A stretch of 63,202 bases of DNA, the filler included, from Perkinsus chesapeaki ATCC PRA-425 (lineage: Eukaryota > Protista > Perkinsozoa): assembly GCA_013115145.1 (NCBI GenBank). It is 13 parts of 13 records of this genome, joined end to end, with 100 filler letters (N's around TTAATTAATTAA, not from the genome) between each part and the next. Parts side by side here need not be neighbours in the genome. Positions count along the whole stretch, not along the records: positions 25,511 to 27,738 come from JAAPAO010001648.1; 12 more parts are not named here. One strand, 5' to 3'. The notes beneath the pieces are model-generated. The model had not been told where the DNA came from. It saw only the letters and a program-made list of their open reading frames with translations, and searched no databases. Shown here one piece after another: positions 2,033-61,633 of the stretch (its first letter is position 1; each line of letters opens with the position of its first letter). Position numbers and translations under genes: made by a program.

Positions 2033-2980
2033 GGTAGTATTAGTATTACTGGCTTTAGAGGAAGTTCGCGAATCGCGTTGAAATCCGGAACAAGCGAGCT
2101 GTAACTCATAAATGCGCAGAGCTTTGACCAATTTAGGCCAAATTAGGGTACGATATTCGATAGCGTTTCGATATTGTCATGGTTTTTGTCGTGCGATGTT
2201 AAATACGTGGTTGACTTTACTTTTCGCAGATCGTGGCGTTGTCGTCTTCCCAAAAGCGTATGCCCAAGACCGGTCCTTCGAAGGCCTTCAATCATGCTTT
2301 GGATTAAGTCTATATATGTATGGTATGTTTTAATGCTTAACTTGTTGAGTTTAAACTGTTAAGTGAATCAGAGAACCTCCGACAGATGCTTTTATACGTG
2401 CACACTGTGAGGCTCACACTGTGAACACGTTGGGTTTGCATAGCCCGCAGTTCATAGCTTATCGTTACGATGCGATGGTTAGAGTCTTCCACGCGGATTG
2501 GCTGGGATAGCAAGTAACTCTGCGGTCGATGGTATTTGCGAGCTATCCCCTCGTATGGTTACCGGCCCAAGTTAAGTTTATTGAGCAAGTAAGGTATCTG
2601 TTGTGTAAAGCACTCAAGCTGCAGCAATTTGCTGCTAGAGTGCACAGACACCAGATGCTGCCAGAAAGCAGTACTCATTCCGCGAACCTTCTCCAGCATA
2701 TTCAATATTTGGTGTTTCCCGCTGATGATCTGTGATGAATTTCGTCTTTCAAACTTGATTACGCAACAACAATCCTGTTGACAACATCAAACATCACGTA
2801 AGTTATGTGATAACAGCAACAACAATAACGCAAGAACATGTATCGTGATGGTATTACCATCGAGGGGGGCTGCATACTATNNNNNNNNNNNNNNNNNNNN
2901 NNNNNNNNNNNNNNNNNNNNNNNNTTAATTAATTAANNNNNNNNNNNNNNNNNNNNNNNNNNNNNNNNNNNNNNNNNNNN

Positions 2981-5900
2981 TTTCTACGACGTTCCGCCAT
3001 ACCAACCTAGCGTTCATGTTGGCCTCCAAGTAACGACCAAGCGGATCATAGAGGGCGGCGAGAGCGCTGCTCGCCATCCTCTTAGTGACCGTACCATCAT
3101 GAGGAAGTGGCTTAACTGTGAGTATTGGACGCAAACAGTCACCATCCGTAAGCTCGTAGCCCAATACCGTCGAAGTGGCTGTAAGGTTCCAAGTCTCGTG
3201 AGTTTTTGTCGGTGGGAACGTGAACTTGTGGTAATTGCCACATGCAGAAATGATGTTGCTGCACCGGACCGACTGAAGGTAATGATGGCCGAGGACAGCC
3301 CAATCGTCCACGTAATCCCGCCATATCAGAGACGATGATAACTGCTGTACAATACTCCCATCCCTGCTGAATGCAGCAGCGAGAACCGGCCGGGCATGGT
3401 CATAGTAGGAAGACTCGTAAACGGCCGGTAGGGGGGTCACATTGGTGTGCTGGTCAGCCTCACTGTGCAACGCGGGGCAGAGCGTATGCAGCAAGTTCCT
3501 CGCCTCCAAGTAGACATGGGCGGTGGCGAGCTCCAGAGCTCCTCCACTCGGAGCCATGCCGAAGGCGACTGAGACCCACAATATCATAATTGGTCTTGGT
3601 GATGGGCTCGACGGAAGTGACGGGCGTTGGATGACCGTGCCACAAGTTGCACTTGCTGATGGTGCCATAACCAACTGGTTATACGCTTGTTGTATATCCA
3701 TGAATGTTACTGTCGGGTGGGTACAACATGCTAGTAAATACTCATGTAAGCACCAACGCGTACTTGTGGGTGACGTCAGAAGGTTGTTGGTGGGTCTGCA
3801 GTCGTACACTATCCTGCAAGGAGTAGTCGAGCTTGATTCCTTGTATATATATTGTGCGCCAATGAATGCAGGCAGATTTTCTTGCAGGTAGCGGTTTGAT
3901 ACCAAATAGGAATCCTTCACCATAGCGTTGTTGCAGTACATGTTGTGGATGACGCGAGGTGGTGGGGGGCGACTTGTGTCATGAAGGCTCATGTAGCTAA
4001 CGTAACCACTGGTGAGGAGCTTGGTGATGGCTGCGTCGGCTTGGAGTTTTTCCTTCGTAGACAATTTGGAGCAAGCCTTGGCGGCACGAGCCACCGCAGC
4101 TTTCCATCCAGAGCCGGCGGATCGTCGTAGGCTTGGTAGGGACACATCGAAGTCTATGGCAAAACGACCGTCCTGGAGGGTATCGATATGGATACACTGG
4201 TGTGGTGGGAGCACCCGCTTGGTGGAGGTTCCGAGGAGGGGGAAGGTCTCCTCATGACTAGTGGCTTCAGAAAGATCAATGTGGTTGAGGTTGGCGTCGA
4301 AGTTGAGTGAGTTCCCAAGGTGTCGGTGATGGTGACCAGGAGATAGATCCATCAGTGCCACAGTCATAGTTTCATCGTCCACCAACGCCATAGGGGCACA
4401 TGATGATGAATGCTGGGGAGATTCATGAGCGGGTGAACCCTCCTTCGACGATTTAGTCTCGATATGGGTGATGGCGCCGCCGCTGTTGGCAGCGCTGCAG
4501 CATTGCTGAGGTTCTCCAGGTGCTTGCTTGTTGCCTGTCGAGATCGAGACTGAGCCAGCCTTGATGAAGTCGATTCTCACACCCAAGGCAGAGAGGCCCG
4601 GCGTTCCCAACACGAGAGGGCAAGTTAGATGTTTTACGACGAAGGCTGCTATCGTCGCTGTGCACCGTGAGGTATGAACCAACAGCTTGCAGATACCAAC
4701 AGACTCAATACGGGAACCATCCGCCAATATCGCAATGTTGCCACTGGCGCCTCCTTTGGGGGCTCGGCCTAGGATCTTCTCAATAATGTCATAGCGGACG
4801 AAGTTCCCGGAGGCTCCCGAGTCCCACAACGCCATAACAACACACTTGTCGAAGATGCGAGGGGTGTCATGTCCTCCCTGAGTAACCAGCTGTATAGATA
4901 CTGGGGCTTGAACCTTGACACCGCGTAGACGGCACGAGGGTAAGTCAGTCTTCGCGACAGACGGAGAAACTGTCGCCAGTAGAGTATATATCTCGGCCGT
5001 TGAGCAGCCTGCAGTCGGGAAACCGTCTAGTGACACCTCTGCCGCTTCACTCTGTGTCGAGGGGCCGCTGGTGTTGTTGGAGCTGCTGGGTGGATCAGAG
5101 TCGTCTCTTGATCTGCTCTTGCCTTTGCCCTTGCCTTTGCCATGTCGTCTTCCACTCGTGAGCGGTGGGCTGCGGCAAGCCGCCGCGAAGTGGCCCACTT
5201 GATTGCAACGGGCACATACCTTGCGGTACGCAGGGCAATCCGTCTCGCGGACCTCACCATGGGAGCGAGCACAATAAAAGCAGGCGCTGGCAGGAAGTAT
5301 AGGCTTCTGCAGCTTGCAGGTTCGGACGCCCTTACACGCAGGATCCTTGCATCCTCGTGCACATCCTTGAGAACCATCAGGTAAGGGACCGGGTTGAACG
5401 CCATTGAGGAAGGTCTCATCCAAGTCCATAACCATTAAGGGTGACCCCCCAAGAGGTGCAGGAGCTGTCACCGCGACACTTGCTGGGGAGGGAAGAGCAT
5501 TAGCCCAGCCGAGCTGGAATTGTGCCACGTGACCGACCGGTTTGGCGACTGATGTGTAGCTTTGCCCGGCTTGCCGGTCGTAGTCGATGACCTTCTGGGA
5601 CATCATTGCCACGAAAGCGCCTAGTGGAAGATTGTTGAACTGGAGCATGTCACCTTGTAGCCGCAAGTCACGTAGTCCACAGCGAAGCTTGGCTCGAACC
5701 TCAGTTTCAGACCGAACGGCACCAGCTAAGGAGAGTTCTTCTTGAGCACAATAGACTCGATTGATATACTGTTGGACACTCTCAGATGGATCTTGTCTCA
5801 GCTCATTCCAGGCCTCCAACAGTTTCTCGGATGTCGATTGCCCTGAGTAGACTGTCTCGAGACTGTGCCAGATATTTTGTACGGCAGCACCATAGTCAAG

Positions 5901-7346
5901 CTCGCAATTATAGGGCCAGTCGTTGTTTATCCCGATGGTCCTGTATACATCAGTGCTGATGTTTTCACGCAGATAATGATAGACCACTATGGGCGACATT
6001 CGCCCGCAATTGCGAGAGACTTCGAGTCTAAAGCTTAGTCCACTCCTGGTGTCGTTGATGCCCTTGAACTTGCCATGGTCTGGAGCTCTTAATAACTTTA
6101 CTGTCTTAAGCTCTTTCTGCAGACGGTTATCAGAAATGGGCGACGCACACGGATGTCGACCACAACCGAAGCAGGGGGCAACTTCGTTATAAGGGTTGAA
6201 GCGTGAGGCAAGTTGTGGGCTCTCTTGTTGGATGTAATGGCCATCGGGAAAGTCACCGAAGGAGCCATAAGGTTCAGTTGGGGTATGATAGGGCGGGGAA
6301 CGGGAATGCTCCGGGTAGTGAGGAGCTATTCCGGGAGGCACTCTCGGACCCCCCATGGGCACTGTACCACTATGGATGCGCCCTCCGGTATGGATGGGAT
6401 AGACGGGGATAGAAGCGCCATATCCGCCTCCGCGTACCGGTGGTGCAGTAGGGATAGGGTTGGCGTTGAACTGAACGGAGACAGGAGTATAACTGGACTT
6501 GCCCATGGCAGCCTGTGTTCGGCATCCCGTTGCCACATCCGGTTGACGGGGTGTCGGCGAAGGGCCAGTCTGAGTCCTGTGTGACTCGGCAAGTGCGCCT
6601 GATAAGGCAGTGAGTGCCGCCGTGATTGCATCTAGTTTCTGCTCTATGTTGGTTGTTAAGGCAGGCGCATGGCTGCTCACTTGGTACACTCTAGTACCAG
6701 GCTGTCCGGACCAAGTAGGACAGTCGATGGGGTTATTGTTCTCGTAGGTAACGGCGTTAGCATGAACAGGGAGAGAAGCGTCTACCGTGGGCGCCTTACC
6801 AATGGACTGGACACGGCCGAAGGTGACGTTGTTGTCAAAGGGGATAATCGGGGGGAATCGAGTAGTATCATTAACGGTGTTCTTGTCATCGGGGACGACC
6901 GAAGTGAATCGAGTAGTATCAATAACGGCGTTCTTGTCATCGGGGACGACCGAAGGGAGTCGAGTAGTATCAGCAGCGGCGTTCTTGCCATCGGGGACGA
7001 CCGAAGGGAGTCGAATAATATCAGCAGCGGCGTTCTTGCCATCGGGGATAACCAAGCCAGATCCCGTGGGGTCGATTATGGCATGGGTACTATCTGGAGT
7101 AACATAACCGGACCGTGCGGGCTCGATACTGGGGTCTTGGCTATCAGGCACTTGAGAACTGGACCGTGCAGGATCAATTGTGACGTTGTCGTCACCGGAG
7201 GGGACGAGAGTACTACCCTCGTGGGAGCCTTGTTGAGATTGTCGATAGAATGCGAGACCGGGTATCAGAGATCCGTCTCCTCGAGCAACGCCGGCGCGCG
7301 TGAGCGCCCGACGTGGGGTAGCATCATCTATAGGGGGTGTTGTCAT
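2981..7346 (-). mobile_element. LTR retrotransposon gag-pol, Bel/Pao-type, 3'-truncated by the gap
   Basis: One uninterrupted ORF with three Cys clusters including CARCNQVGHFAAAC, protease ALWDSGASG, RT motifs (RIVYDCRPTN, FMDIQQAY, AFGMAPSG, YVDD), then TKRMASSALAALYDPLG matching the Bel/Pao TKRxxSxxAxxYDPLG signature. Confidence 0.9.
6822..7205 (-). repeat. 51-bp (17-aa) tandem repeat in the gag N-terminus
   Basis: LPSVVPDGKNAAADTTR-like units, with more diverged DPARS/EPARS/DPTGS units at the same 17-aa period. Confidence 0.85.
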
Positions 7347-7376
7347 CCCGGTAGAAAATTCCTTGCAGCTAGATGG

Positions 7377-7542
7377 TGAACACTACAAGGACTCAATGCA
7401 GTAGTCGAGTGGATACTTAACTAATAGCAGTGTTATAGTTTCATACAGAGACACTACGAAACGTCTAATCTTGCACACTTAGCGAATCACAATAGGGACA
7501 GCGGTCACGCGCCACGAAATCGCTCCGAGTCACCGTGTCACA
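7377..7542 (-). repeat. Candidate 5' LTR of the Bel/Pao element
   Basis: Minus strand runs TGTGACAC...GTGTTCA and ends 30 nt before the gag ATG. No second LTR is available to confirm. Confidence 0.3.
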
Positions 7543-21407: not shown

Positions 21408-22584
21408 ATGCGGGTTGCTTCGTTAATGTTTGGAATTTTGGGTTCAGTTAGCCTGCCCGTTGGTGATGGACAGTTGATTGAGCTTGACGCTGTCCTCGGA
21501 GGGATACCTGGTTATGAATCTGTCTTTTACCCATATTGCCATCTCAAGGAGCTGGGGTTGTGGGCGTCGGTGGACACTGGCGGTGCGTTATTCCAGTTAG
21601 TCTGGAGGGAATGGTATGACTCTGTCATGGGCCCTTATTCATGTGCTAACCTGTTCGCTGGTTGTTATGTATGCAAGCCTCCATGTGATCCTCGGCATGC
21701 TGTAACTCGTGTTGAAACTTTCTTGGATGGTTCCCGTGTAAAAATCTTTGAGCATGAAGGTGACCTTAAAATAGGGTCTGTGGACGTGCGCAAAATGAAG
21801 TTCCAGCTTATATTTGGCCAAGATCCCCCACCTAGTGTATCCCCGGTTTTCAATCTACTCGGTTTGGGACGACAACCCGAAGGCGGTTTCCCCCCGCTGC
21901 TCTACCAATTGATTGATAAGAATCCCAAAGTGATACACAGCAGAGCTTTCGCTATTTACTTTGATGAGAAGGCTCCTAACAGATATTTATTTTGGCAAGG
22001 TCCTATTGGGTGGTGGTGACCCAAACCGCTACAAGCACCCATTACTGTACCTGACTTTTACAGATGCAACATATTATATGGTACCACTGAGTAGTATGCA
22101 AGTTGGTGATGGTCATCCACCTATAGGTATTAACTGGAACATATTGCTCGATAGTGGGACCAACGCACTGGTTGTACCACCACTTTATTATGATGCAATT
22201 ATGCGAGATATCTCTCATGCGGTTGGACAGCCGCTAAGGTGGCATCCGGCAGCTAAGCTATGGTTTATTTCCTGTAGCTACTATAACTCAATGCCAAAGT
22301 TGATGCTTAACTTGGGCCCTAAAGGGGAGGTTCCCATCATTATGAGTAATGTTAATTATGTGCGTCCAGATAGCAAAGGCGACGAATGCTGGATTATGAT
22401 CTTGAAACGAGATATACCTTACTGGATCCTTCCCGGTTCGGTTTTAATCGGGTATTACTTCGAGTTTCAAATAGATAATGGACGAGTGGGAATTGCTGAA
22501 ACTGTTACTCAAAGTACTTTCCTCCGTCACTTCAACGGGTCGGTATTCGCCGGATCTCCGAATGGTGCAAAGTTATCTATTTAG
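21408..22584 (+). pseudogene. Intronless pepsin-family (A1) aspartic protease with one frameshift near 21965-21995
   Basis: Signal-like MRVASLMFGILGSVSL, catalytic VDTGG and LDSGT, LLGLG, GKVLLGGGDP, WILPGSVL and RVGIA. The two lobes are in different frames. Confidence 0.85.
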
Positions 22585-23498: not shown

Positions 23499-24605
23499 AT
23501 GGCGCCCTCATCCCCTGCCCGCTGGCGCGGTGTCATTCTTTGGCCTGTACTCGTCATCGCAGCTGCACTAACCACCTTGACTATTATACCACGGTTTAAC
23601 TTGCCATTGCTCCCCTTTAAAGCAAGGCTGAATAGCTCCTCCCTATCGAAGAAGAACGCTCTCATGGTTATATGTTTCGAGACACCTGAAGACCCAGCAA
23701 TGCTAGATGGATGTAAGGTGACTTTAGCTTCGTTTAGACGGACGAATCCTATCGACGACATCATACTCATTGCTCCTTCTTTGGAGCACATAGCCAGTCT
23801 CGGTAACCTAACGCGAGTTTTACGGATAAGTCTGGAACTTGTCGGTCTGGGCCCCTACGATTGTAAAGTTGATGAATCATGTAGCGAACTGCCCCTCTTT
23901 TCCTCTGGGTACGTTCACCACTATGATTATCCGTCCATTCCAAAGTTCATCGGGAACGCTCTTCGGCATGTCTGGTATGAAGAAGTCATTTCTCGTATTG
24001 GGGACTCCTATGATAAGATACTTATAGCCGATGGTAAAGATCTTTACTTTCAAGCTGACCCTTTCGAGATAACGAACCGTTTGGGGCAGACTTGCCTGGA
24101 TAAAATATGTCTGTTCTCCGAGCCCATCAGCGATCGCGTGGAAAAGTTCTTTATTAAGAAAACGACAAATCTTTCCCACTGCCTCCCGGAGAATGAAAGA
24201 AACCTTGTGATTCGAGATCGTCGTAGCGGGTATGCCAATGGTGGGGTCATCCTTGGCATGACCTCAGCACTCGGTGAGCTGAGTCGGAGCATCGTGGCGA
24301 GAGCAAATTATTGTGATTTTTGGCAAGCCGACCAACACTATCTCAACATTATTATATCATCCCAGGGGGTTAACTTCTATTTGTTCGAGAACGGTTCTGC
24401 CGGTTTGATGGCGAAGACGATCTTATCTCGATGGCGCTCATGGCCTAAATCTTCTGGGCTTTGGTTGCAGACTGCGGGTGCCTTGAAGGAACGAGAACCA
24501 TTGAGCTTTATTCATCAGTACCAGTGGGATGAAGATTTGCGAAGGCTTATACATACAGACATCGACGCATGGCTACGAATTAAACACGAAGAAAAATCGT
24601 ATTAA
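23499..24605 (+). CDS. Intronless type II membrane glycosyltransferase-like protein (GT-A fold)
   Basis: N-terminal TM segment; ILIADGKDLYFQADPF (DxxD.xFQ.DPF), ANGGVILG, ADQHYLN, FIHQY. Confidence 0.75.
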   Translation: MAPSSPARWRGVILWPVLVIAAALTTLTIIPRFNLPLLPFKARLNSSSLSKKNALMVICFETPEDPAMLDGCKVTLASFRRTNPIDDIILIAPSLEHIASLGNLTRVLRISLELVGLGPYDCKVDESCSELPLFSSGYVHHYDYPSIPKFIGNALRHVWYEEVISRIGDSYDKILIADGKDLYFQADPFEITNRLGQTCLDKICLFSEPISDRVEKFFIKKTTNLSHCLPENERNLVIRDRRSGYANGGVILGMTSALGELSRSIVARANYCDFWQADQHYLNIIISSQGVNFYLFENGSAGLMAKTILSRWRSWPKSSGLWLQTAGALKEREPLSFIHQYQWDEDLRRLIHTDIDAWLRIKHEEKSY

Positions 24606-25510
24606 AAGCAAGCTGTTGGGTTGGTGATTCGCGAATGATTGTGTTAGCGTCTATTATCTCCTCATCATCAGGACTTATGTTCCCTTCGGTTTGCATCATA
24701 TAACGTGTTCATCAGGTAAGCGGGCACCTCAGATCGCTTCACGCGAAATACGGCCTGCATACATTCCTTGCTCGCAATTAACACAGGCCAAGTGATGGTA
24801 ACGCGAAGTGTCCAGCAGAAATTCGGAGACATCAGCGAAGTGTCGATGCACGTTGCTTGTGCTCTGGTCTTTGTTCTCGTTTTTACACATGTTACTACAA
24901 TATGAGAGCTCAAGGTGAGTGAGAGCATTTACGGTGGGCCTAGTTCTCTCAACTGGCCGACGGCCAGTAGAGTACGGCCGCTGCCGTAGGCTGCGACACA
25001 TCGATGCGTTAATAATTCCTACAGTTAGTAAGATACTAATACATACAACCTTGATAATACAACCTTCAGTTCGGTTGTATCGTTAGAAGTATCATCGCAT
25101 TCTACGTGAACCCAAGGCATAGAATGGCTGTAGAAGAAGGGAATATGTAGTCGCATTCTTGCACTGTCCATGATATAGACTGCATTAACAGTTAGACATT
25201 CGTCACAATAGTTGTCCCATAAACATCGCGGAACCTCAGCAGCTGAGGCTCAGCTTAGCTATTACTCCCCGCGGGATATTTGTTCTATCTCTTCATCTGG
25301 TTTGTAGGTGTTCTATACATTACATACTTCACGCTCGTACACGTTTACCAAGGTCCAAGCACAACCTAACTAATGTCATTGGGGAGAGCGCTGGTCGTGC
25401 CTAGGCCTTANNNNNNNNNNNNNNNNNNNNNNNNNNNNNNNNNNNNNNNNNNNNTTAATTAATTAANNNNNNNNNNNNNNNNNNNNNNNNNNNNNNNNNN
25501 NNNNNNNNNN

Positions 25511-26359
25511 CGTCGTTTTCGAAAGTGCTCCGAGACCCTCGGCCCATTTGCCGAGGTCGCTACGGCGGCCTCCGGCCCGCGCCTCACCGCCAGGGAGGAA
25601 AGGCCGGGTAAAGATTTCTTGACGAACCAGCGTGAGCCAGCCGGAAACCTCCTCTCTAGAGTGTGGGCTATTGAAGATGCAATGCATGATGCCGAGGGAG
25701 CTGCTACCACACGCTTACAGAAACTACAGCAGGCTAGTGAAGAACCATGCGGCTGCGACAACCTGACGGAAAACGCCATGCTCGAAATCCTCTCACGAAA
25801 TGGTATACAGCCTACTCGCTTTTGCACTCTAATCACAAATCTCCTTTGCACAGGGCGCAGCAGAAATGCTAATATTGCTCTTGCTGGAGGGAGTGGTTGT
25901 GGCAAAAGCTACTTGGTGAAGCACCTCGCCGATATTTATAGGAGCTTGGGCACTCTTGGGTCTGACAGCTATCCGCTAGCCATCTTAGTAGAGAAAAACG
26001 TGGAGATATTTATCCTCGACGACTTTCGCTACAACCCGAAGCAGATTGGTTTCTGTTTATCTGATGCCTTGCCATTTTTCGAAGGGAAAAGACAATTAAC
26101 TATTACTCTTCCGAAATCTGGCAACAGGTGTGATACTGTCTACGAGAACGACGCACCGGTGATAATCACCGTTCCTACTCGATTCCACTGCAAAGATCTA
26201 TCTGCAGATGATAATGACATGCTCAACCAGCGCTTTACATGGCTCAGTCTAGGTAATCCTTTGAGTCTGGCAACCAGAAAAGACCTCCCGGCATGCGGAC
26301 CTTGCTTTGCGAAGTTTGTCTTACGAAACAGCACTCTATCATGCGTTCGCAAGCTCTAG
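25511..26359 (+). mobile_element. Parvovirus-NS1/Rep-like superfamily 3 helicase, 5'-truncated by the gap
   Basis: Frame open from 25511. Walker A GGSGCGKS, Walker B ILDDF, FEG...LPK, PVIITV (motif C region), MLNQRF (Arg finger), C-terminal PACGPCF. Confidence 0.85.
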
Positions 26360-26839
26360 AACTATAGTGGCACTACTGGTGGTCAAAACCGTGTATTTGT
26401 ACAGAAAAATATGAGTATGTCTTAGATTCTTGTCCATCCTTATTTTCTGTTGGGTTGAGTGGGGGACGCTTCACATCATTCCATTTTTGTAGGTTTATTT
26501 CGGTGAATGGCCAGCAAGACTTCCAGATCCTATGCCTTCTCGAGCTCATCCACTGCACCCAAACGCAAAAGTGAGTCACAACAGATAGACTAATAGCGCA
26601 CAGCCCTAACACAAATCAGTAGAACAGTGTAGCTCAGTAGAAAAGGGGAGTGGCGGATACCGCAACTATAGTAGAGAATCTCTACTAGAGATGGACAAAG
26701 GGTCGAATGTGAACGAACATGACACAAAGTATTTTTCGCTCGCCGAGCGGGAATCTTTTGGGCTTGGCCATTAGTCCTACAGTGTGCGAGCACACTGGGC
26801 ACACAGAGTACAGTGTGTACCTACAGCAGCCCCCATCAC

Positions 26840-26911
26840 CCCCTCTCCAATGTTGAAAGCCGGTATACTGCATGAAGGTAGAACGTGTTAGTATACAACA
26901 TTGGAGAGGGG
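26840..26911. repeat. Stem-loop with a 16-bp perfect stem downstream of the Rep-like ORF
   Basis: CCCCTCTCCAATGTTG (26840-26855) pairs with CAACATTGGAGAGGGG (26896-26911). Confidence 0.9.
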
Positions 26912-27137
26912 TGTGGGGGACGCGCGTTGCTGAGTCATAATTTTGCGATTGACTGGCTTCTCCGGCGAGCGCGGCAACGACACACACGATACGTCTTTAG
27001 ACGGAAAAATCTATCAAAATCTACGGTAATAATTACGTTCTTGTTAGGTAGCGACTAATAGGACCACAGTCACTTATATCAGATAGGGAGAACACTCTCT
27101 GTCTTACCATTGGCGTAGACTTCAATAGAGGCTGACA

Positions 27138-27167
27138 AAGCGATATATTATATACGATATATCGCTT
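27138..27167. repeat. Hairpin with 11-bp stem and 8-nt loop
   Basis: AAGCGATATAT-TATATACG-ATATATCGCTT. Confidence 0.92.
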
Positions 27168-27307
27168 CTTAACCCTACTTAACATTACGAGTCTACGGGA
27201 AAATGAAACTTAGAGGGAATGGCGTACAGTATCTAACTTAGATTAGCCTAGGCAGTGTAGATATGACACGGAAAATTGACATTTCAGATACATCTGATAG
27301 GGAGCCA

Positions 27308-27738
27308 TTACAGGGGTGGAGGGCAATCTATGCGTTCGAGCACAGTCAGATTTCCATCAATCGTTGCGTTGAACACGAATTCCAAGTTAATCGGGTGGTG
27401 TTGCCATTTAAAGCCGAAACCAACATATGGATATTGAGTAGTATTAGGTAAGGCTGGTTCAAGCCCAATATAGGGATGCTGATCGGAATAGTACATGGAA
27501 TAGGTCAATTTATAAAATGATAAGACAAGCCCATGATCGCTTGTCAAGAAACCAGTGATGCCGATCGTATCCAGCCAAAGGCTTCCATGACTTCCTGGCC
27601 GAGGACCACCCCCAAGAGGGCAAGCTCCATAGACTTTGTAGGCTGTCGGCGTCGGCGTCGGCGTTGGCGTTGGCGTTGGCGTTGGCGTTGGCGTTGGCGT
27701 TGGCGTTGGCGTTGGCGTTGGCGTTGGCGTTGGCGTTG
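27308..27738 (-). CDS. C-terminal part of a protein with a (Pro-Thr)n linker; 5'-truncated
   Basis: The minus frame is open from the gap: (PT)n-AYKVYGACPLGG...ERIDCPPPL*. Confidence 0.65.
27646..27738. repeat. (GGCGTT)n / (GGCGTC)n hexamer microsatellite
   Basis: Directly visible, running into the gap. Confidence 0.97.
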
Positions 27739-27840
27739 NNNNNNNNNNNNNNNNNNNNNNNNNNNNNNNNNNNNNNNNNNNNTTAATTAATTAANNNNNN
27801 NNNNNNNNNNNNNNNNNNNNNNNNNNNNNNNNNNNNNNCG

Positions 27841-29391
27841 GTGGACTTAACGTTTCTCCTGGTGCCGCAATGCAATCCATCGGTCATCATTGGGCGCAAC
27901 ATGTTCTCTACCCTTGGTGTGCAACTCTACTCGAGAAAGATCTCTGTCGGTAACGCCCTCAATCAGCAGTCTGTTTCGACCCAAACCTCAGCGACGGTCG
28001 ACACCACTAATGCTATTAATCTCATATGCTCCAGAGCGGTGACTTGCGCGACAACACCACTCATAGAGCGGATCACTGAAGACGGTCAACCACGTCTGCT
28101 TGCACACCTACCGGCAATTGAGAACGCCAATGTGTACCCTTATCGAGCCGCTAAAAGACGCCGCCCCCCTGCTGATGACGCCATCATTCACAGCAAGCTT
28201 CTGGAGATGTCTACTCTAGGCAAAGTTGCCAAGGCCCAGGACAAGGAGGTCACTGTTGTCTGCCAACCGGTTCTCATCGACAAGTGGGACAAGGCCGACG
28301 GTACGTGCACGGCGCGCGTCTTTCCTCTTTCCAAGACTGAGCTCAAGCGCTACCGCCTGACCGTCGACTGCCGCCCATTAAACAACCTCAAGCTCTTGGC
28401 TGACGCCGACGGCAAATTCCTCTTCGTGCCCACTAACGCCAGTGGTCAGGACAACACCTGCAAAGGCAACGAGGAGCACGTCTACAAGCAGTATCAACGC
28501 GGAGCCACTGTGCTGCTCCGTGACATTCCTGGTGACCATCTGGGATACTGGAGTAAGGTCGATCTCGAGGACGCCTACGGCACACTCAGAGTGCCCAGTT
28601 CTCTATCTCGCCTATTCGGTACGGTCAGCACTGGTCCCAACGGTCAGCAATATGTCTGGGTCCTAAGGACTCTCGCTCAAGGTTGGCGATGGGCACCACT
28701 ACTATTTCAGCTGGCTATGACCACTATCATCGACGAGGACATCAACCCAGTACTGGCAAAGGCTGGCCTTAATGCCTCAGTCATTCATGTGCAAGACGAT
28801 GTTCTGATCTCAAGCTCCGACATCGACACCGGTAACAAGGCCTTTATCATTGTCATCAACATCTTGGAGAAGCATGCTGGCTTTACTGTCAATAGGGAGA
28901 AATCCCAAGAGCCCGCTGAAATCACCAGTTTCTGTGGTCTCCAACTTTACCGTGATACTTACAGACCGACTCCAAGCAGGAGGGAGTTTACTGATGCCAC
29001 CTATAATTGGGCTCTCCAGGACTTCATCAACTGCAACCCAGTAAAGGGCAAGCGTGGCAAGAAGAAGGCTCCTACGACTGGTGATCTAGTTCGAGACCGA
29101 CGACTTCAGTGGCTTAGAAGCTGGTGCGGTGTATTCAACTATCTCAGTGGGCACCTCTCCCCAGAAGCACAGCGATCTCTCAATGAGCTGTATTCGGTCA
29201 GTAAGATCTACCAGGACAGCAACTCCACTGCCGAGGACTTTGACGATACTGTCAAGACCGTCTCATCAGCATTCCGGGTTCTGTCTGACTTCTACCTTAG
29301 TGGTGTGATACCCTGTGCGATTGGTAACGATGGCATCGCCACACTTATTGTTTCTGATGCCAATGCTGACTCGTACGGTGGTATACTACTC
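27841..29391 (+). mobile_element. Ty3/Gypsy-like pol fragment (protease end, RT, RNase H start)
   Basis: SVIIGRN (protease end), RLTVDCRPLN, SKVDLEDAY, LAQGWRWAP, HVQDDVLI, FTVNREKS, LIVSDANADSYGGIL. Open across the whole contig. Confidence 0.88.
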
Positions 29392-29491: not shown

Positions 29492-29911
29492 TGCATGTTT
29501 CCTTTGCGTTGATCAGAGCCTTACGGCGACCCCAAGGGACATTGTGTCTTCGACTTTTACACAGAAATGGTCGCCAACTGTACATGCCCAACCGGGGAGA
29601 TCCCTCTGACCCTTGGAGTAAGCATGTTACTCTCAGTTCGTTATATCAGTGAATCTCCTATGTCAGAACAACCAGCACATCTGTGGCCCCTCCTCTTTCA
29701 GTACGACTCTGATTGCCCCAAGCCACCCGACGGTATTACAGCTGTACCTGAGTGTCTCGTTGCTCGCATGTCGACGGCTTGTCAGCTGGATCGTAAAAGC
29801 CAGCAAGTAAAACAATAAATCACCAATTCGGTTATAACCAGAAATGTCTTTTGATAGGACTGTGCAAGCGGGCGTAACTGTGCGGGTGGTTTGTGTGTCT
29901 TCAGCGGCTGA
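29492..29911 (+). pseudogene. Cys-rich small protein, paralogue A, frameshifted
   Basis: Same exon structure as 31040-31593, but the middle exon is 1 nt shorter before TCTGATTGC and has lost Cys codons. Confidence 0.7.
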
Positions 29912-31039
29912 AGTTCAGCCACTGACACCGTGCGTGGGGAATCCCTGCGTCTACAGCTCCAGAAGATTCTGGCATTGTACATTCTCTTACAAGAGAATGC
30001 CAGAGAATCTTACAAGAAACACACATCTTTGCAAACTCTATGAGGAACCTTTCATTGAAGTGTCAGGGATGTACCGTTCACATTTTATTGTACGAGACTT
30101 CGTGCCGCAAACTATCGCGGCTTCACATGGTGAATTATTTGTCCTGTATTCACCGTGAATCTTATGTTCACTATAGTGTCGCGTTGAACGGTTAATAGTG
30201 ATCTATTACTCTGCCCCGGATCCGGCACACTCGCCTCCAATAAGCCAGCTAATGTTCAACACATTATTCGAGCTTCTGTTGGGTCCCCTGGTGTCACCGG
30301 ACAGGTGACATCGGGAGAGATCAAGTGGAGATAACAATTCTCAGCTCCCTACCCTGGCTAAGTTATACCAGAATCATAGCACGATTGATCTAGTACTAGT
30401 TCACATAGGATGATCTAGCCAATACTGTGAAATACTCCAGCTAATACCAATGACCCCTCCTGCAGTGTCAGGGGTCGGAGCGCCTGCTGTCTGCAGAGTA
30501 GCCTGTTGTCTACCCTTCTGAGAAGGGCCTTCTCGATTCTTATTTGTTGAAAACCTCGAGATGGCGAGGGCGGCTTGGATGAATCTGGCGGTCTCACGAG
30601 GCTGTATTCAATACAGTATATTGGGCTATTTAGCAGGTTACCTGTTTGAGGAGGTTTCGTTTATTCGAGGACCTGTTCCCCAACAAGCGAACTATCAGCC
30701 CACAGGCGCGATGCGCCCCTCCATGGTTGCAATGTGCTTAGCTTAGGCGAGGAGCTTGCGTGCAAAAGAACACTGTCATCTACTCTTCCAGTATTTGTAG
30801 GCGCTGTGTTTAACATTGTTCCTCGCATTATCGTTATCACCTACCTTTCTGAATGAGTGACTAAAACATCTCCGAAGTGTTCGAATTGTCACTAGGGAGG
30901 CTCGGTCTATAGGCACAAGACGGTACAATTTCTTTACGACTATGGTATCTTGGGACTTTTTATGTAGTTATCATGAAGCAAGCATTCCTTATTGTCACCC
31001 TCCACCTGATCCTCCCCGAATGCAGCGGCGTCTCTGGAA

Positions 31040-31593
31040 ATGAAGGTGGGCATGTCATTGAATAAGAACGTTGGGATCACTCTCATAGAAAATGCTATAT
31101 CTCCTGCTTGCCCGGAGTTCACTGTACCGTGTTAGATGAACTCACAGATTTGGATCGCTACTATACATACATGTCGCTCCTGTGTTACTCAGCTCCTTAC
31201 GGCGACCCCAAGGGACATTGTGTCTTTGACCCTCACACAGGGCTGGTCAACAACTGTACATGCCCAACCGGGGAGATCCCTCTGAGCCTTGGGGTAAGAG
31301 GGATGCACGTTACTCTCAGTTCGTTATATCAGTGAGTCTCTTATGTCAGGATAACAAGCAAATCTGTGGTCCGTCCCCTTGCGACGTCAACTCTGATTGC
31401 CCAAAGGCACCCAAAGATGCTACAGCTATACCTGAGTGCCTCGTTGCTCCGGTGCCGACAGCTTGCAAGCTGGATTGCAGGAACCAGGAAGTGAAGCAGT
31501 ACATCACCCTTTCGGTCATCACGGTCTCGCTTTTGTTAGAAGTGTGGAAGCGGGCGTACATGTGTCGGTGGTTTGTGCAGTTTCGTCCACTGA
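31040..31593 (+). CDS. Cys-rich small, probably secreted protein, paralogue B
   Basis: Spliced PYGDPKGHCVFDPHTGLVNNCTCPTGEIPLSLG|DNKQICGPSPCDVNSDCPKAPKDATAIPECLVAPVPTACKLDCRNQE|KCGSGRTCVGGLCSFVH*. The 5' exon structure is ambiguous. Confidence 0.75.
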
Positions 31594-31863
31594 CACCGTG
31601 CGTGAGGAATCCCTGCGTCCACAGCCTCAGATTCTGCCATTTTACACTCTCCTAAGGTGCAGTTGCATTATGTACAGCTATATTATATGGAGATCAACTA
31701 TTGTTTAGGTACATTATATACAGTGGGCCGCGTAGGCCTAATATATTACGAACTCTATTACAANNNNNNNNNNNNNNNNNNNNNNNNNNNNNNNNNNNNN
31801 NNNNNNNTTAATTAATTAANNNNNNNNNNNNNNNNNNNNNNNNNNNNNNNNNNNNNNNNNNNN

Positions 31864-32850: not shown

Positions 32851-33089
32851 CGTTATCTCACAGGAGATGGACTAACAAAAGGAATGCGACGGGGCCCTCA
32901 TAAACGATGGATAGAGTTTCGTGATAGTCAGCGGTAGCGTGATTTACTGATATCTACCACTGCTAGCGGTGACTATCATGATGATATGACGCGTATTATG
33001 GACGGTGTACCAATTGCTCACGGCATTACTTGTCCTCCTGATTCGCGTTAGTGACACCGCAACTAAATTGTTGAACACATCTTGGCACA

Positions 33090-33161
33090 GCCGGTTTAGC
33101 TTAGTGGTAGAGCGTCAGTCTTGTAAACTGAAGGTCGGCGGTTCGATCCCGCCATCCGGCT
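33090..33161 (+). tRNA. tRNA-Thr (UGU)
   Basis: GCCGGTTTAGCTTAGTGGTAGAGCGTCAGTCTTGTAAACTGAAGGTCGGCGGTTCGATCCCGCCATCCGGCT. Full cloverleaf, anticodon TGT, one T-T mismatch in the acceptor stem. Confidence 0.95.
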
Positions 33162-33268
33162 ATCACTCCTTGAGTTGAAGATACTCCTTTTAGAATGTCT
33201 TAAGTATTACTTTCTTTAATACAGTACACGCACACTGGCGAACACAACCGTATGCTGTTTGGAAGCAA

Positions 33269-58024: not shown

Positions 58025-59367
58025 GTCTGGATGATAGTATCGGTTGTCTCAAAATAACTACTAGTAGGTGATGGACAGATGCATCTCTTAGAAGTACTAG
58101 CTGTTGGAGTACTTGCAGGTGTTGATTCAATAGTAGTTGACGTTGCGCTGACTGAGCTAACCGTTGTTGTCTGCTCAGTTCTCGTTGTAGCTAATGAAGT
58201 GGCCGAGGAGCTTGCCGTAGATGAAGTAATAATAAGAGTTGTAATTGTGGTTGTGCCAGAAGGGGTTGTACCGGTTGTCGTACTAGTCGAAGCTGTAATA
58301 GTTGTCGCAGTCGTACGGCTGGCTTCAGTAGGAGTATTCCCGTTTGTACTAGCGCCAGCTGGAGTCGTTGTGGTGGTTGTGGAGCTTGCCTCAGTCGCAG
58401 GTGCTGTCACTGGGTGTCTTTCCTTCAGCCACTCATATGTGCTCTCCACAACGGGTTTAATAATGATGGTGTCGGGAGGGCATGCTCTGAGGGTAAGCAA
58501 CAGATAAAAACAGAATACAGCGGCGTTATGGGTTTACCTCATATGTAAAGATGTATCATGTGGTGAGGTTCTATAGTAACCTTTCATACACCAACATGTT
58601 TGATAATCAGCATACCAATTATAAGTACACCACTCAGGAGGGCTCTCATTGGGGTACCCTAAATGACAAAAAGCTGTCTGATATGCCGTCGATGCGACAA
58701 TTCTGACTTACACTTTGGAGCATAATTCTCAAGAGATTGATCGGAACAATTGCTGGCTAGGTCTATACCATGTGGAGGAAGGAGCACGTATCTCGGGACT
58801 TTCTCGTAACAACTGAGGAAGTGACCAAGGGTGCCGAAGAATAATAATAGACTTACAGCCAATCTCTATCCTTCTTGCCGTGGTCATTGCCATCATCGTT
58901 CGGATCGAGAATGCATCCTGAGATGGCACGACATCTTGCGGTGGTCCACCAAGTGGTGATGAATTACTATATACACTGGGGGACCTCTTGAAGGGTTCCT
59001 TGTCATGCTCATTTTCATGTAGACGGACACAGAACCTGAGGAAGATAAATCTACGAGCAAGAAAATTCAGAGCCATCTGCTGTGGTTACTCTATTATTTC
59101 CTTTTCTTGTGCTCCATACGTAACAGCGTTTCTCCACTTATTGCTACACTTGAACTGCCCGGGCTTCTCATAGCGGCCTTTGCCGTTGGCGTAGATCTCC
59201 CAATAAAATCCGTGGACTTCTTTCTTGATTTTTGATTGCCCTGAAGAAAAACTCAAGTAAAAGGCGAAAGTAGTGGGCTTACATGCATTCTTGTTGTCTT
59301 TTGGTAGAACTGTGCGGCCTGACACTAGAGTTGGTGTTGCGAGAGTGAACAATGTCACGAGCTTCAT
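58025..59367 (-). CDS. Secreted mucin-like (Thr/Ser-rich) protein, copy A; multi-exon, 3'-truncated
   Basis: Signal MKLVTLFTLA, intron after KNA, WEIYANGKG...FKCS.KW.NAVTYGA, Cys-containing exons, Thr-rich tract, KRCICPSPTSSYFETT. Confidence 0.8.
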
Positions 59368-60305: not shown

Positions 60306-61633
60306 ATGAGGCTCATCTCATCTCTAGCTTTGGTGGCTGTCACATTACCAGATATGGTATTAGCCCGCACTAGGCTACCTAAGGATAATAAGAAAGCATG
60401 TAAGCTAACTATTGTGAAGGAAGTTCACTCCATTCCTTGTGGGGTATTACTGCTCCTTTTTCAGGGCAACCAAAGATAAAGAAGACGGTCAGCGGATTCA
60501 GATGGGAAATTTACGCCAATGGACGTGGAAGTTATAAGAAGCCTGGAAATTTCAAATGCAGCGGCAAGTGGAAGAACGCCGTCACTTATGGAGCTCGAAA
60601 GAAGGAAATTAAAGAGTGAGTCGCATATAATCCACTTTAGTGGATTTAAACTACTCACGCATTGGTTATCAGGTTCTGTGTTCGGCTGCATGAGAATCAG
60701 CAAGATGATAGGGGCTATAAGGATGCTCCTAAAAAATACAGTAATTAACCTCACATGGATCTACAAGGCTCTACGGACCTTTAGGATGCATTCTTGATCC
60801 AAACGATGACGGCAACGACCATGGCAGGAAGGACAGAGATTGGCTGTAGCTATAAAATGCAATATTTGATTTTACAGATTTCCTGTCTTAGTTGTTACGA
60901 GAAGGTCCCGGAATTTGTGTTGCTTCCTCCGCATGGTCCAGAATATAAAAGCAATTGCACCAGCCTCGACGACTATGTGCCGAAGTGTAAGTTGAGGCTT
61001 TGGATTTATGACATCATATTTCAGGGTACCCCAATGAGAGCCCTCCAGAATGGTGTACTTATAATTGGTATGCTGATTATCAAACATGTTGGTGTATGAA
61101 GGGGTTCTATAGAACATCACCACATGATACATCTTTACACATGAGGTAACCCACATTTTAATTTCATCAATTGGATGTGTATTGAATAACAATGACGGCA
61201 TTTACGATATTTTTCTCAGGGCATGTCCTGACGATACCATCATTATGGAACCAAGGCTGGTTTATTCGTATGCTTGGTTGGAAGCAAGATACCCTCCCAC
61301 CACAACTACCACTACGACAACAACAACTACCACTACAACAACAACCACTACAACTACGACAACTACCACAACTACTACAACAACAAGCGCAACAACTACT
61401 TCTACCACCACTACAACTACTACGACTACAAGCTCTTCTCTGCCTACTACGGTCTCAGCGGTCACTTCAACTCCAACCACAACTGCCAGTACTACAGCAG
61501 TTGGTACTTCTAAGAGATGCATCTGTCCGTCACCTACTAGTAGTTATTTTGAGACAACCAATACTATCATCCAGACAACTTCAAGCCCTACAACAGTTAA
61601 ACCTACAGTTGCTGTGACTACAACATCGGAGAG
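60306..61633 (+). CDS. Secreted mucin-like protein, copy B; multi-exon, 3'-truncated
   Basis: Same exon series as copy A in the opposite orientation, with a long poly-Thr run and the same KRCICPSPTSSYFETT motif. Confidence 0.8.

What the first reader, a model, noticed from the sequence alone, without database searches (positions are those of the whole stretch)
25511..26359. Parvovirus-NS1/Rep-like SF3 helicase: candidate endogenous ssDNA virus or rolling-circle element
The ORF is intact and intronless, with full SF3 motifs. Its wider layout (W.IE.A...RL..L..A...C.C...EIL..N.I....F......LL..GR..N.N..L.G....GKS...DDFR...EG....LPK...D......P..IT...MLN.RF...C..CFA) matches, from memory, the NS1-like proteins of parvovirus-like elements in marine invertebrate genomes more than classical CRESS Reps. 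The expected N-terminal HUH nuclease would lie beyond the gap. In an apparent bivalve-parasite lineage this could be an undescribed virus or transposon family, possibly exchanged with the host.
Basis: partly seen in the sequence, partly recalled or inferred. Interest (0 to 1): 0.8.

Follow-up and report, generated by a model that had tools for sequence, protein, structure and literature searches.

The report
Broken NS1-like rolling-circle element in Perkinsus
This is the helicase half of a virus-like DNA-copying gene, cut short by a repeat, in what is likely a Perkinsus (shellfish parasite) genome; intact relatives in Perkinsus, a dinoflagellate and corals carry a predicted DNA-nicking domain and likely form a little-noticed family of capsid-less jumping elements.

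Summary
The reading frame is real: 281 stop-free codons with Walker A/B, a conserved late Arg and a CxC/CxxC pair. It is not intact. Homology to all 8 Perkinsus relatives starts at 25589; the first 25 codons are a GC-rich multi-copy repeat. A second sample has lost one conserved Cys. The copy looks single and decaying.

It belongs to a large family: 476 representatives, and 91 of 95 long ones carry an N-terminal HUH-like domain. A full-length P. olseni member folds as a CRESS-like nuclease fused to an AAV-Rep/papillomavirus-E1-like helicase. Named members come from Perkinsus, Polarella (clustered on what looks like one contig), Acropora and Paramuricea. No capsid gene was seen in the two contexts I could read, and 7 IMG/VR scans confirmed no relative.

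Best reading: a dead fragment of a capsid-less rolling-circle element (0.6); an endogenised ssDNA virus is the rival (0.3). Exchange with the bivalve host is unsupported: the Perkinsus copies form their own clade (100/100) outside the coral-containing clade. The locus is ordinary; the family is the interesting part.

The parts
25411..25510 (.). Assembly gap (44 N + 12-base spacer + 44 N), true size unknown
   Evidence: the same spacer recurs at 13 places in the window
25511..25588 (+). GC-rich multi-copy repeat read in frame by chance (codons 1-25); one other copy matches on to 25611, so the break lies between 25588 and about 25611
   Evidence: depth 1075-2183 vs 11-126 and loose ends; identities and GC; no Rfam family
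25589..26359 (+). Helical domain plus SF3 helicase half of a HUH-SF3 Rep gene, 5'-truncated; stop at 26357-26359
   Evidence: 51-61% identity to four Perkinsus-clade proteins; family tree
25748..25756 (+). CxC (C79, C81); with C261/C264 a likely metal site (inferred, geometry not checked)
   Evidence: C in 146 and 138 of 148 rows
25886..25909 (+). Walker A, GGSGCGKS
26006..26029 (+). Walker B, IFILDDFR
26156..26176 (+). Motif C position (PVIITVP), without the Asn
26231..26233 (+). R240, likely arginine finger (inferred)
   Evidence: R in 139 of 148 rows
26294..26305 (+). CxxC (C261, C264); in runs X2 and X5 (one sample) C261 is replaced and 12 bases are inserted over 26305-26320
   Evidence: tables 3, 4, 8; codon mapping
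26556..26955 (+). Multi-copy module (26556-26588 joined to 26803-26955 in other copies); candidate right end of the element (inferred)
   Evidence: joint 26588-26803 in 3, 2 and 2 contigs; loose ends behind 26955 with differing flanks
26589..26802 (.). 214-base insert with sharp ends, found with other flanks elsewhere; no target duplication beyond 2 ambiguous bases; short hairpin near its right end
   Evidence: tables 5, 7
26826..26923 (.). Long subterminal hairpin (perfect 16-base arms 26840-26855 / 26896-26911)
   Evidence: z = -5.64, 0 of 200 shuffles

Best explanation
The stretch is a 5'-truncated, likely dead helicase half of a HUH-nuclease/SF3-helicase Rep gene, from what is likely a capsid-less rolling-circle mobile element long resident in Perkinsus genomes. 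Shown: the helicase half, the foreign repeat at its 5' end, and the HUH+SF3 layout of full-length relatives. Inferred from known HUH Reps: an intact Rep would bind a hairpin near the element's end, nick one strand through a conserved Tyr (Y179 of P0154, in Y-x5-Y-x2-K), unwind the strand as an SF3 ring, and join the displaced strand into a circle or a new chromosomal site, giving dispersed copies and tandem arrays. Inferred for this copy: a repeat landed in or replaced the 5' half, leaving no nuclease or start codon in frame; the hairpin module ending near 26955 would be the right end.
For: Truncation and decay. HUH domain in 91 of 95 representatives of 400 aa or more (the profile was built from family members, so partly circular), with H138, H140 in 87 and Y173, Y179 in 92 of 96 rows; independent fold support: N-domain of P0154 matches Vientovirus Rep endonuclease (Z 10.4, rmsd 3.1, 109 aligned) and geminivirus Rep (Z 9.9); helicase matches AAV2 Rep40 (Z 16.9, rmsd 4.3, 245 aligned) and E1 (Z 16.2). 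Residence in cellular genomes: P. marinus 306-kb contig, P. olseni 36-104-kb contigs, Acropora 1.1-Mb contig, clusters of 116-312 members at 90% identity. Several divergent copies in P. olseni. Polarella: 6 of 10 cluster members list a 144,849-base contig with 7 accessions inside CAE8640467-476, and gene models run through repeated SF3 units. Relative L001 has one long ORF in 5 kb and no capsid-sized ORF beside it. No capsid-sized ORF in 24600-27740 of the window.
Against: No second copy with flanks was available, so ends, target site and movement are not shown. Cluster members may come from many genomes, not many copies in one. Only two contexts could be read for a capsid (this locus, L001). 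A capsid gene could lie upstream in the gap or on a second segment. The hairpin module may be an unrelated repeat; long terminal hairpins also fit parvovirus-like genomes. The IMG/VR scans use short exact patterns and are insensitive. The frame is still open over 256 codons, which allows a recent break or some selection (chance of no stop is 0.56 at 2% decay, 0.05 at 10%).
Confidence: 0.6

Rival explanations
1. Endogenised fragment of an undescribed ssDNA virus (parvovirus-like or cressvirus-like) whose capsid gene was lost, lies beyond the gap or sits on another segment; copies arise by repeated accidental integration.
For: All fold neighbours are viral replicases; Atlas look-alikes are mostly Cossaviricota clusters. 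Published parallels: acorn-worm parvovirus-like repeat with NS1, VP1 and a terminal hairpin (PMC3198968, section 8 read); RepE1 cressviruses with candidate capsids and rearranged integrations in sea anemones (PMC11071296, section 12 read). Many relatives lie on 1.5-5 kb contigs.
Against: 0 confirmed relatives in 7 IMG/VR scans (9, 4, 600, 57, 56, 19 and 33 pattern matches examined). Best identity to any modelled viral protein shown is 16%. No capsid Pfam hit in 46 long relatives nor above cut-off in 5 ORFs of L001 and 8 flanking ORFs of the window.
Confidence: 0.3
2. Domesticated host helicase: the nuclease was lost and the helicase is kept as a cellular gene, spliced to an upstream exon or started at an internal ATG.
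For: Frame open for 256 homologous codons with Walker A/B intact; looks single-copy. The P. marinus relative is also annotated without the HUH domain (300 aa).
Against: In a second sample a Cys conserved in 138 of 148 rows is replaced and 12 bases are inserted beside it. Perkinsus relatives are several divergent, partly gapped copies rather than one orthologue. Flanks are repeats on both sides.
Confidence: 0.06
3. Contaminant or free episome scaffolded into the assembly by error.
For: The 2.2-kb contig is bounded by gaps on both sides.
Against: Held by 5 DNA runs of 2 samples and 2 studies under one organism label (X1 may be the source sample). Depth over the helicase (113, 126, 11) is like that of neighbouring single-variant contigs (77-134 in X1), not above it. 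GC and GC3 match the neighbouring gene (48.6/49.6 vs 47.2/49.5). It shares repeats with other loci in the same runs, and its closest relatives are Perkinsus nuclear proteins.
Confidence: 0.04

Closest known systems
Parvoviridae NS1/Rep (AAV2 Rep68/Rep40, B19V NS1)
   Same: HUH + helical domain + SF3 helicase in one chain; best fold match of the helicase part (Z 16.9 to Rep40); best Pfam hit Parvo_NS1; long hairpin nearby.
   Different: Pfam score under cut-off; 12-15% identity; the nuclease domain's best listed matches are CRESS Reps; motif C Asn absent; CxC...CxxC signature; no capsid gene seen; protist host.
CRESS-DNA virus Reps (Cressdnaviricota) and pCRESS plasmids
   Same: Nuclease domain fold (Vientovirus Z 10.4, geminivirus 9.9, circovirus 9.3, nanovirus 9.0); YLITW / HYH / YxxK motifs in P0154 (motif names recalled).
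   Different: Helicase part fits AAV/E1 better than PCV2 (Z 8.1, but a shorter chain); no nonanucleotide stem-loop in 24600-27740; no plasmid or phage match.
Replitrons (Craig 2023, PMC10288648; abstract and passages read)
   Same: Eukaryotic, CRESS-like HUH Rep, capsid-less, integrated.
   Different: Replitrons have no fused helicase; this family has an SF3 helicase. Terminal direct repeats not tested.
Helitrons
   Same: Eukaryotic rolling-circle transposon with a fused helicase and subterminal hairpin (passages).
   Different: Helitron helicase is superfamily 1B, not SF3; this Rep is about 450-500 aa.
DENSOV_HM (Hydra), PIVE/PEVE (planarians), acorn-worm parvovirus-like repeat (Liu 2011, PMC3198968; section 8 read, supplements searched)
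   Same: Multi-copy NS1/E1-like sequences in invertebrate genomes; DENSOV_HM placed at the base of papillomaviruses, which fits the weak PPV_E1_C hits here.
   Different: The acorn-worm element has a VP1 capsid ORF.
RepE1 cressviruses (Buck 2024, PMC11071296; section 12 read, supplements searched)
   Same: E1-like Rep, sea-anemone data sets, rearranged integrations.
   Different: They carry candidate capsids. Read by eye, the Cress4479 RepE1 lacks the CxC and CxxC pairs and the visible part of Cress4414 RepE1 lacks the CxC; the 8 passages shown for six family motifs were all unrelated proteins, but most occurrences were not shown and files were cut.

Membership tests
SF3 helicase | Walker A and B in a compact AAA+ domain | tested here: met
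   GGSGCGKS, IFILDD; fold of P0154 matches AAV Rep40 and E1
SF3 helicase | Motif C with Asn (recalled) | tested here: not met
   ITVP here; Asn not among the five commonest residues at columns 220-221 in 148 rows. Lowers 'textbook SF3', not 'works like SF3'.
HUH Rep (family level) | HUH motif, catalytic Tyr and RCR nuclease fold | tested here: met
   87 of 96 rows H-x-H, 92 of 96 each Tyr; Z 9-10 to CRESS nuclease domains
HUH Rep (this copy) | Nuclease domain in frame with the helicase | tested here: not met
   Foreign repeat at 25511-25588; no HUH-profile hit in six frames of the window, best E 0.37; the gap itself is unread
Parvoviridae | NS1 above family threshold | tested here: not met
   Parvo_NS1 17.9 bits vs cut-off 20; none of 12 full-length relatives reaches it, best 19.3
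Parvoviridae | Jelly-roll capsid gene between NS and right hairpin | tested here: not met
   Only about 470 bases between stop and hairpin; no ORF over 105 aa
Parvoviridae | Terminal hairpins at both ends of a linear genome | tested here: inconclusive
   One long hairpin 3'; left end not in the contig
Cressdnaviricota | Circular genome with stem-loop nonanucleotide origin and capsid | tested here: inconclusive
   No nonanucleotide in 24600-27740, no go-back joint, but the 5' half is missing
Replitron | Y1 Rep without fused helicase | tested here: not met
   SF3 helicase fused in 91 of 95 long relatives
Helitron | RepHel with SF1B (Pif1-like) helicase | tested here: not met
   Helicase is SF3 by fold
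Rolling-circle transposon (any) | Shared sharp ends, no target duplication, filled and empty sites | tested here: inconclusive
   Candidate right end near 26955 from loose ends; no second rep-bearing copy with flanks
DENSOV_HM / PIVE | Sequence homology to the Repbase entries | not testable with these tools
   Supplements give names in a tree only

The most novel reading that the evidence does not exclude
The family is a third, unrecognised group of eukaryotic HUH transposons (after Helitrons and Replitrons): capsid-less elements with a CRESS-like nuclease fused to a parvovirus/papillomavirus-like SF3 helicase, amplified in corals, dinoflagellates and Perkinsus, and a living model of the step from CRESS Reps to Cossaviricota replicases.
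Probability: 0.35. Interest if true: 0.85.

Novelty: new variant of a known kind. Interest (0 to 1): 0.6.

Why it matters
This copy is a remnant and by itself ordinary. The family behind it has at least 476 representatives at 50% identity, none of 12 full-length members tested reaches a Pfam nuclease or helicase cut-off, and named members are annotated as hypothetical or uncharacterised proteins. If it moves without a capsid it would be a major missed class of repeats in coral and alveolate genomes. Its mosaic Rep bears on the proposed route CRESS virus to parvovirus to papilloma/polyomavirus (PMC6668415, passages read). If it is a virus, it would be an ssDNA-type virus lineage of Perkinsus and dinoflagellates, for which my searches found no report.

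Tried and rejected
No whole genome is held, so copies and flanks in the host could not be searched. Longer fused forms of P0001: none among 3,535 candidates; this search is plainly insensitive, as one search found them. PDB by sequence gave only P-loop matches; with a profile, weak hits to Vientovirus Rep (E 0.004) and SIRV1 ORF119. No other homologous stretch in the window by tblastn of 177 proteins. Rfam and tRNA scans do not explain the 5' repeat, and it folds no better than shuffles (z -0.8, -0.35), so a ribozyme or terminal hairpin there was dropped. An 18-base piece of it matched 2 IMG/VR contigs, extending to 18 and 25 bases only: chance. Other frames of 25511-25588 show no homology; the in-frame reading gave p 0.016 against 1 of 5 homologs, not significant over 15 tests. 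Metagenome scan: 9 of 597 matches passed, only L001 is a full relative. GTDB scan: 3 loci from 21 matches, one true relative on a 502-base contig of a MAG, likely contamination. Phages and plasmids: no match. No RNA holder listed; run X6 laid nothing. No depth baseline on a host gene was obtained, so 'single copy' rests on neighbouring contigs. Parvoviral nuclease domains were not among the 50 rows; that is no exclusion. Paper searches found no description of this family; subscription journals and Repbase are not covered. Three look-ups of earlier findings were empty. No complex was predicted.

Full report
Observation. The frame 25514-26356 is open for 281 codons and ends in a stop at 26357-26359. 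It starts at the edge of an assembly gap and lies on a 2.2-kb contig, 25511-27738. None of 10,000 shuffles of 25589-26356 was stop-free. Walker A (GGSGCGKS), Walker B (IFILDD), a late Arg (R240) and two Cys pairs (C79/C81, C261/C264) are present. Pfam gives only a sub-threshold Parvo_NS1 hit (17.9 of 20 bits); the ESM Atlas puts it next to NS1/E1 clusters at 0.97 and next to a mostly eukaryotic, cnidarian cluster at 0.96.

Host. The closest proteins are from P. marinus (59%) and P. olseni (61%, 51%), so the window is likely a Perkinsus genome; I did not fix the species. Five DNA runs from two samples and two studies hold 82-87% of the sampled words. Laid on four runs, the helicase lies on one unbranched contig per DNA run at depth 113, 126 and 11, like neighbouring single-variant contigs (77-134 in X1). 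GC and GC3 match the neighbouring gene. This argues for one integrated copy, and against an episome or a contaminant; contig depth is a rough guide and no host-gene baseline was obtained.

The ORF is not intact. Seven Perkinsus-clade proteins align from exactly 25589, the eighth is a shorter fragment. The helix just upstream is well kept among five homologs (14-21 identities in about 25 columns) but shares only 3-6 with the window; the other two frames do no better; the DNA is 69% GC against 49%. Summed depth there is 1075-2183, and another copy of this stretch has unrelated flanks. So a multi-copy repeat abuts the helicase, in both samples, and is read in frame by chance. The first ATG is codon 57. 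A HUH profile finds nothing in six frames of the window. In the second sample (runs X2, X5) the first Cys of CxxC is replaced and 12 bases are inserted next to it, although that Cys is kept in 138 of 148 family rows. An open frame alone does not show selection: it would survive 2% random decay with chance 0.56.

The family. phmmer found 476 representatives at E up to 0.001 and listed 150. Of these 150, 100 hit a profile of the N-terminal domain, including 91 of the 95 with 400 aa or more (profile built from family members). In 96 full-length rows the two His are kept in 87 and two Tyr six residues apart in 92 each. P. olseni P0154 (498 aa) is a complete member with YLITW, HYH and YSTK motifs. 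Its model (mean pLDDT 74) matches AAV2 Rep68, SV40 large T and papillomavirus E1 by Foldseek. By VIA-align the helicase part is closest to AAV2 Rep40 (Z 16.9, rmsd 4.3, 245 aligned) and E1 (Z 16.2, rmsd 4.5, 256 aligned), the nuclease part to CRESS Reps (Vientovirus Z 10.4, rmsd 3.1, 109 aligned; geminivirus 9.9). Identity to modelled viral proteins is at most 16% in the rows shown. All four Cys occur in 126 of 135 rows; the motif C Asn is missing. Named members are from Perkinsus, Polarella glacialis, Acropora millepora and Paramuricea clavata; most have no name. An Atlas cluster with molluscs (phylum known for 3) is a weak structural neighbour (TM 0.43).

Virus or transposon. For a resident element: clusters of 116-312 near-identical proteins and contigs up to 3.2 Mb (members may span genomes); several divergent copies in P. 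olseni; 6 of 10 Polarella members listing one contig length with near-consecutive accessions and gene models that run through repeated units; one long ORF only in the 5-kb relative L001; no confirmed relative in 7 IMG/VR scans, phages or plasmids. These scans rely on short exact patterns, and only two genomic contexts could be read. At this locus a long hairpin (26826-26923, z -5.6) lies about 470 bases after the stop, inside a multi-copy module that other contigs show as 26556-26588 joined to 26803-26955, with differing flanks beyond 26955 (that table lists only part of the loose ends). If this is the element's right end there is no room for a capsid gene after rep. It may instead be an unrelated repeat. 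For a virus: every fold neighbour is a viral replicase, and published NS1/E1-like elements of invertebrates can carry capsids (PMC3198968 section 8; PMC11071296 section 12).

Host exchange. In an IQ-TREE tree of 47 chosen helicase regions, the window protein, three named Perkinsus proteins and P0004 form a clade (100/100, stem 0.97), outside the 12-row clade with the two named cnidarian proteins (98/98); deeper nodes are open. FastTree on 148 of 154 proteins agrees on the Perkinsus clade. No bivalve-labelled row was available, so recent transfer from the host is unsupported rather than excluded; the spread of 48-68% identity among Perkinsus copies points to long residence.

Mechanism. Inferred from known HUH Reps (PMC10288648 passages; PMC6668415 passages): nicking by a Tyr near a terminal hairpin, covalent 5' attachment, unwinding by the SF3 ring, then circle formation or strand transfer. 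None of these steps was shown here. This copy lacks the nuclease in frame and is likely dead.

Known or new. It fails the tests for Parvoviridae (no capsid before the hairpin, sub-threshold NS1), Replitrons (has a helicase) and Helitrons (SF3, not SF1B), and is inconclusive for Cressdnaviricota. Ten paper searches found no description of the family or of such elements in Perkinsus; PMC5013282 (passages) and PMC12070523 (passages) do not mention Perkinsus or this layout in the places searched. Repbase and subscription journals were not searched, and cut supplement files of PMC11071296 could hold members.

Verdict. Observation partly confirmed; interpretation partly supported. Broken copy of a HUH-SF3 Rep: about 0.9. 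Capsid-less rolling-circle element 0.6, endogenised virus 0.3, domesticated gene 0.06, contaminant 0.04. Interest 0.6, carried by the family and not by this locus.

Noticed in passing
window 26589-26802: A 214-base element with sharp ends and a hairpin near its right end sits at several other sites without a clear target duplication; one other site is followed by tRNA-like letters (by eye). Possibly a non-autonomous rolling-circle element.
   Followed up: partly
window 25511-25611: Unidentified GC-rich high-copy repeat; no Rfam match, no second copy in the window.
   Followed up: partly
protein P0049: A family member with an N-terminal DnaJ domain (29.6 bits, above cut-off) before HUH and SF3, the same order as polyomavirus large T (recalled).
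   Followed up: no
proteins P0011, P0013, P0106, P0107, P0137, P0120, P0126 and others: C-terminal SAM or SHOCT domains are fused to separate subgroups of the family; P0137 also has DEK_C.
   Followed up: no
Polarella cluster, P0013 and P0165-P0173: Gene models run through repeated partial units (SF3 C-half plus SAM), suggesting a tandem array with partial repeats.
   Followed up: partly
window 27841-29391 (+): Reverse transcriptase ORF, RVT_1 E 1.2e-9, between two gaps.
   Followed up: no
window 2925-7382 (-): 1,485-codon gag-pol-like ORF; weak zinc knuckle and gag hits under cut-off.
   Followed up: no
window 23499-24605 (+): Intronless 368-aa gene with no Pfam family; held in NCBI/UniRef on a 22,430-base contig, the length of window contig 2981-25410.
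   Followed up: partly
window 21934-22584 (+): C-terminal part of an aspartyl protease (Asp, E 2e-18).
   Followed up: no
window 29505-29989 / 31181-31654 and 58531-59248 / 60457-61152: Direct duplication at 77% and inverted duplication at 68% identity; tRNA-Thr at 33089-33162.
   Followed up: no
L012 (502 bases): A 61%-identical family fragment lies on a tiny high-coverage contig of a cyanobacterial MAG, likely eukaryotic contamination.
   Followed up: no
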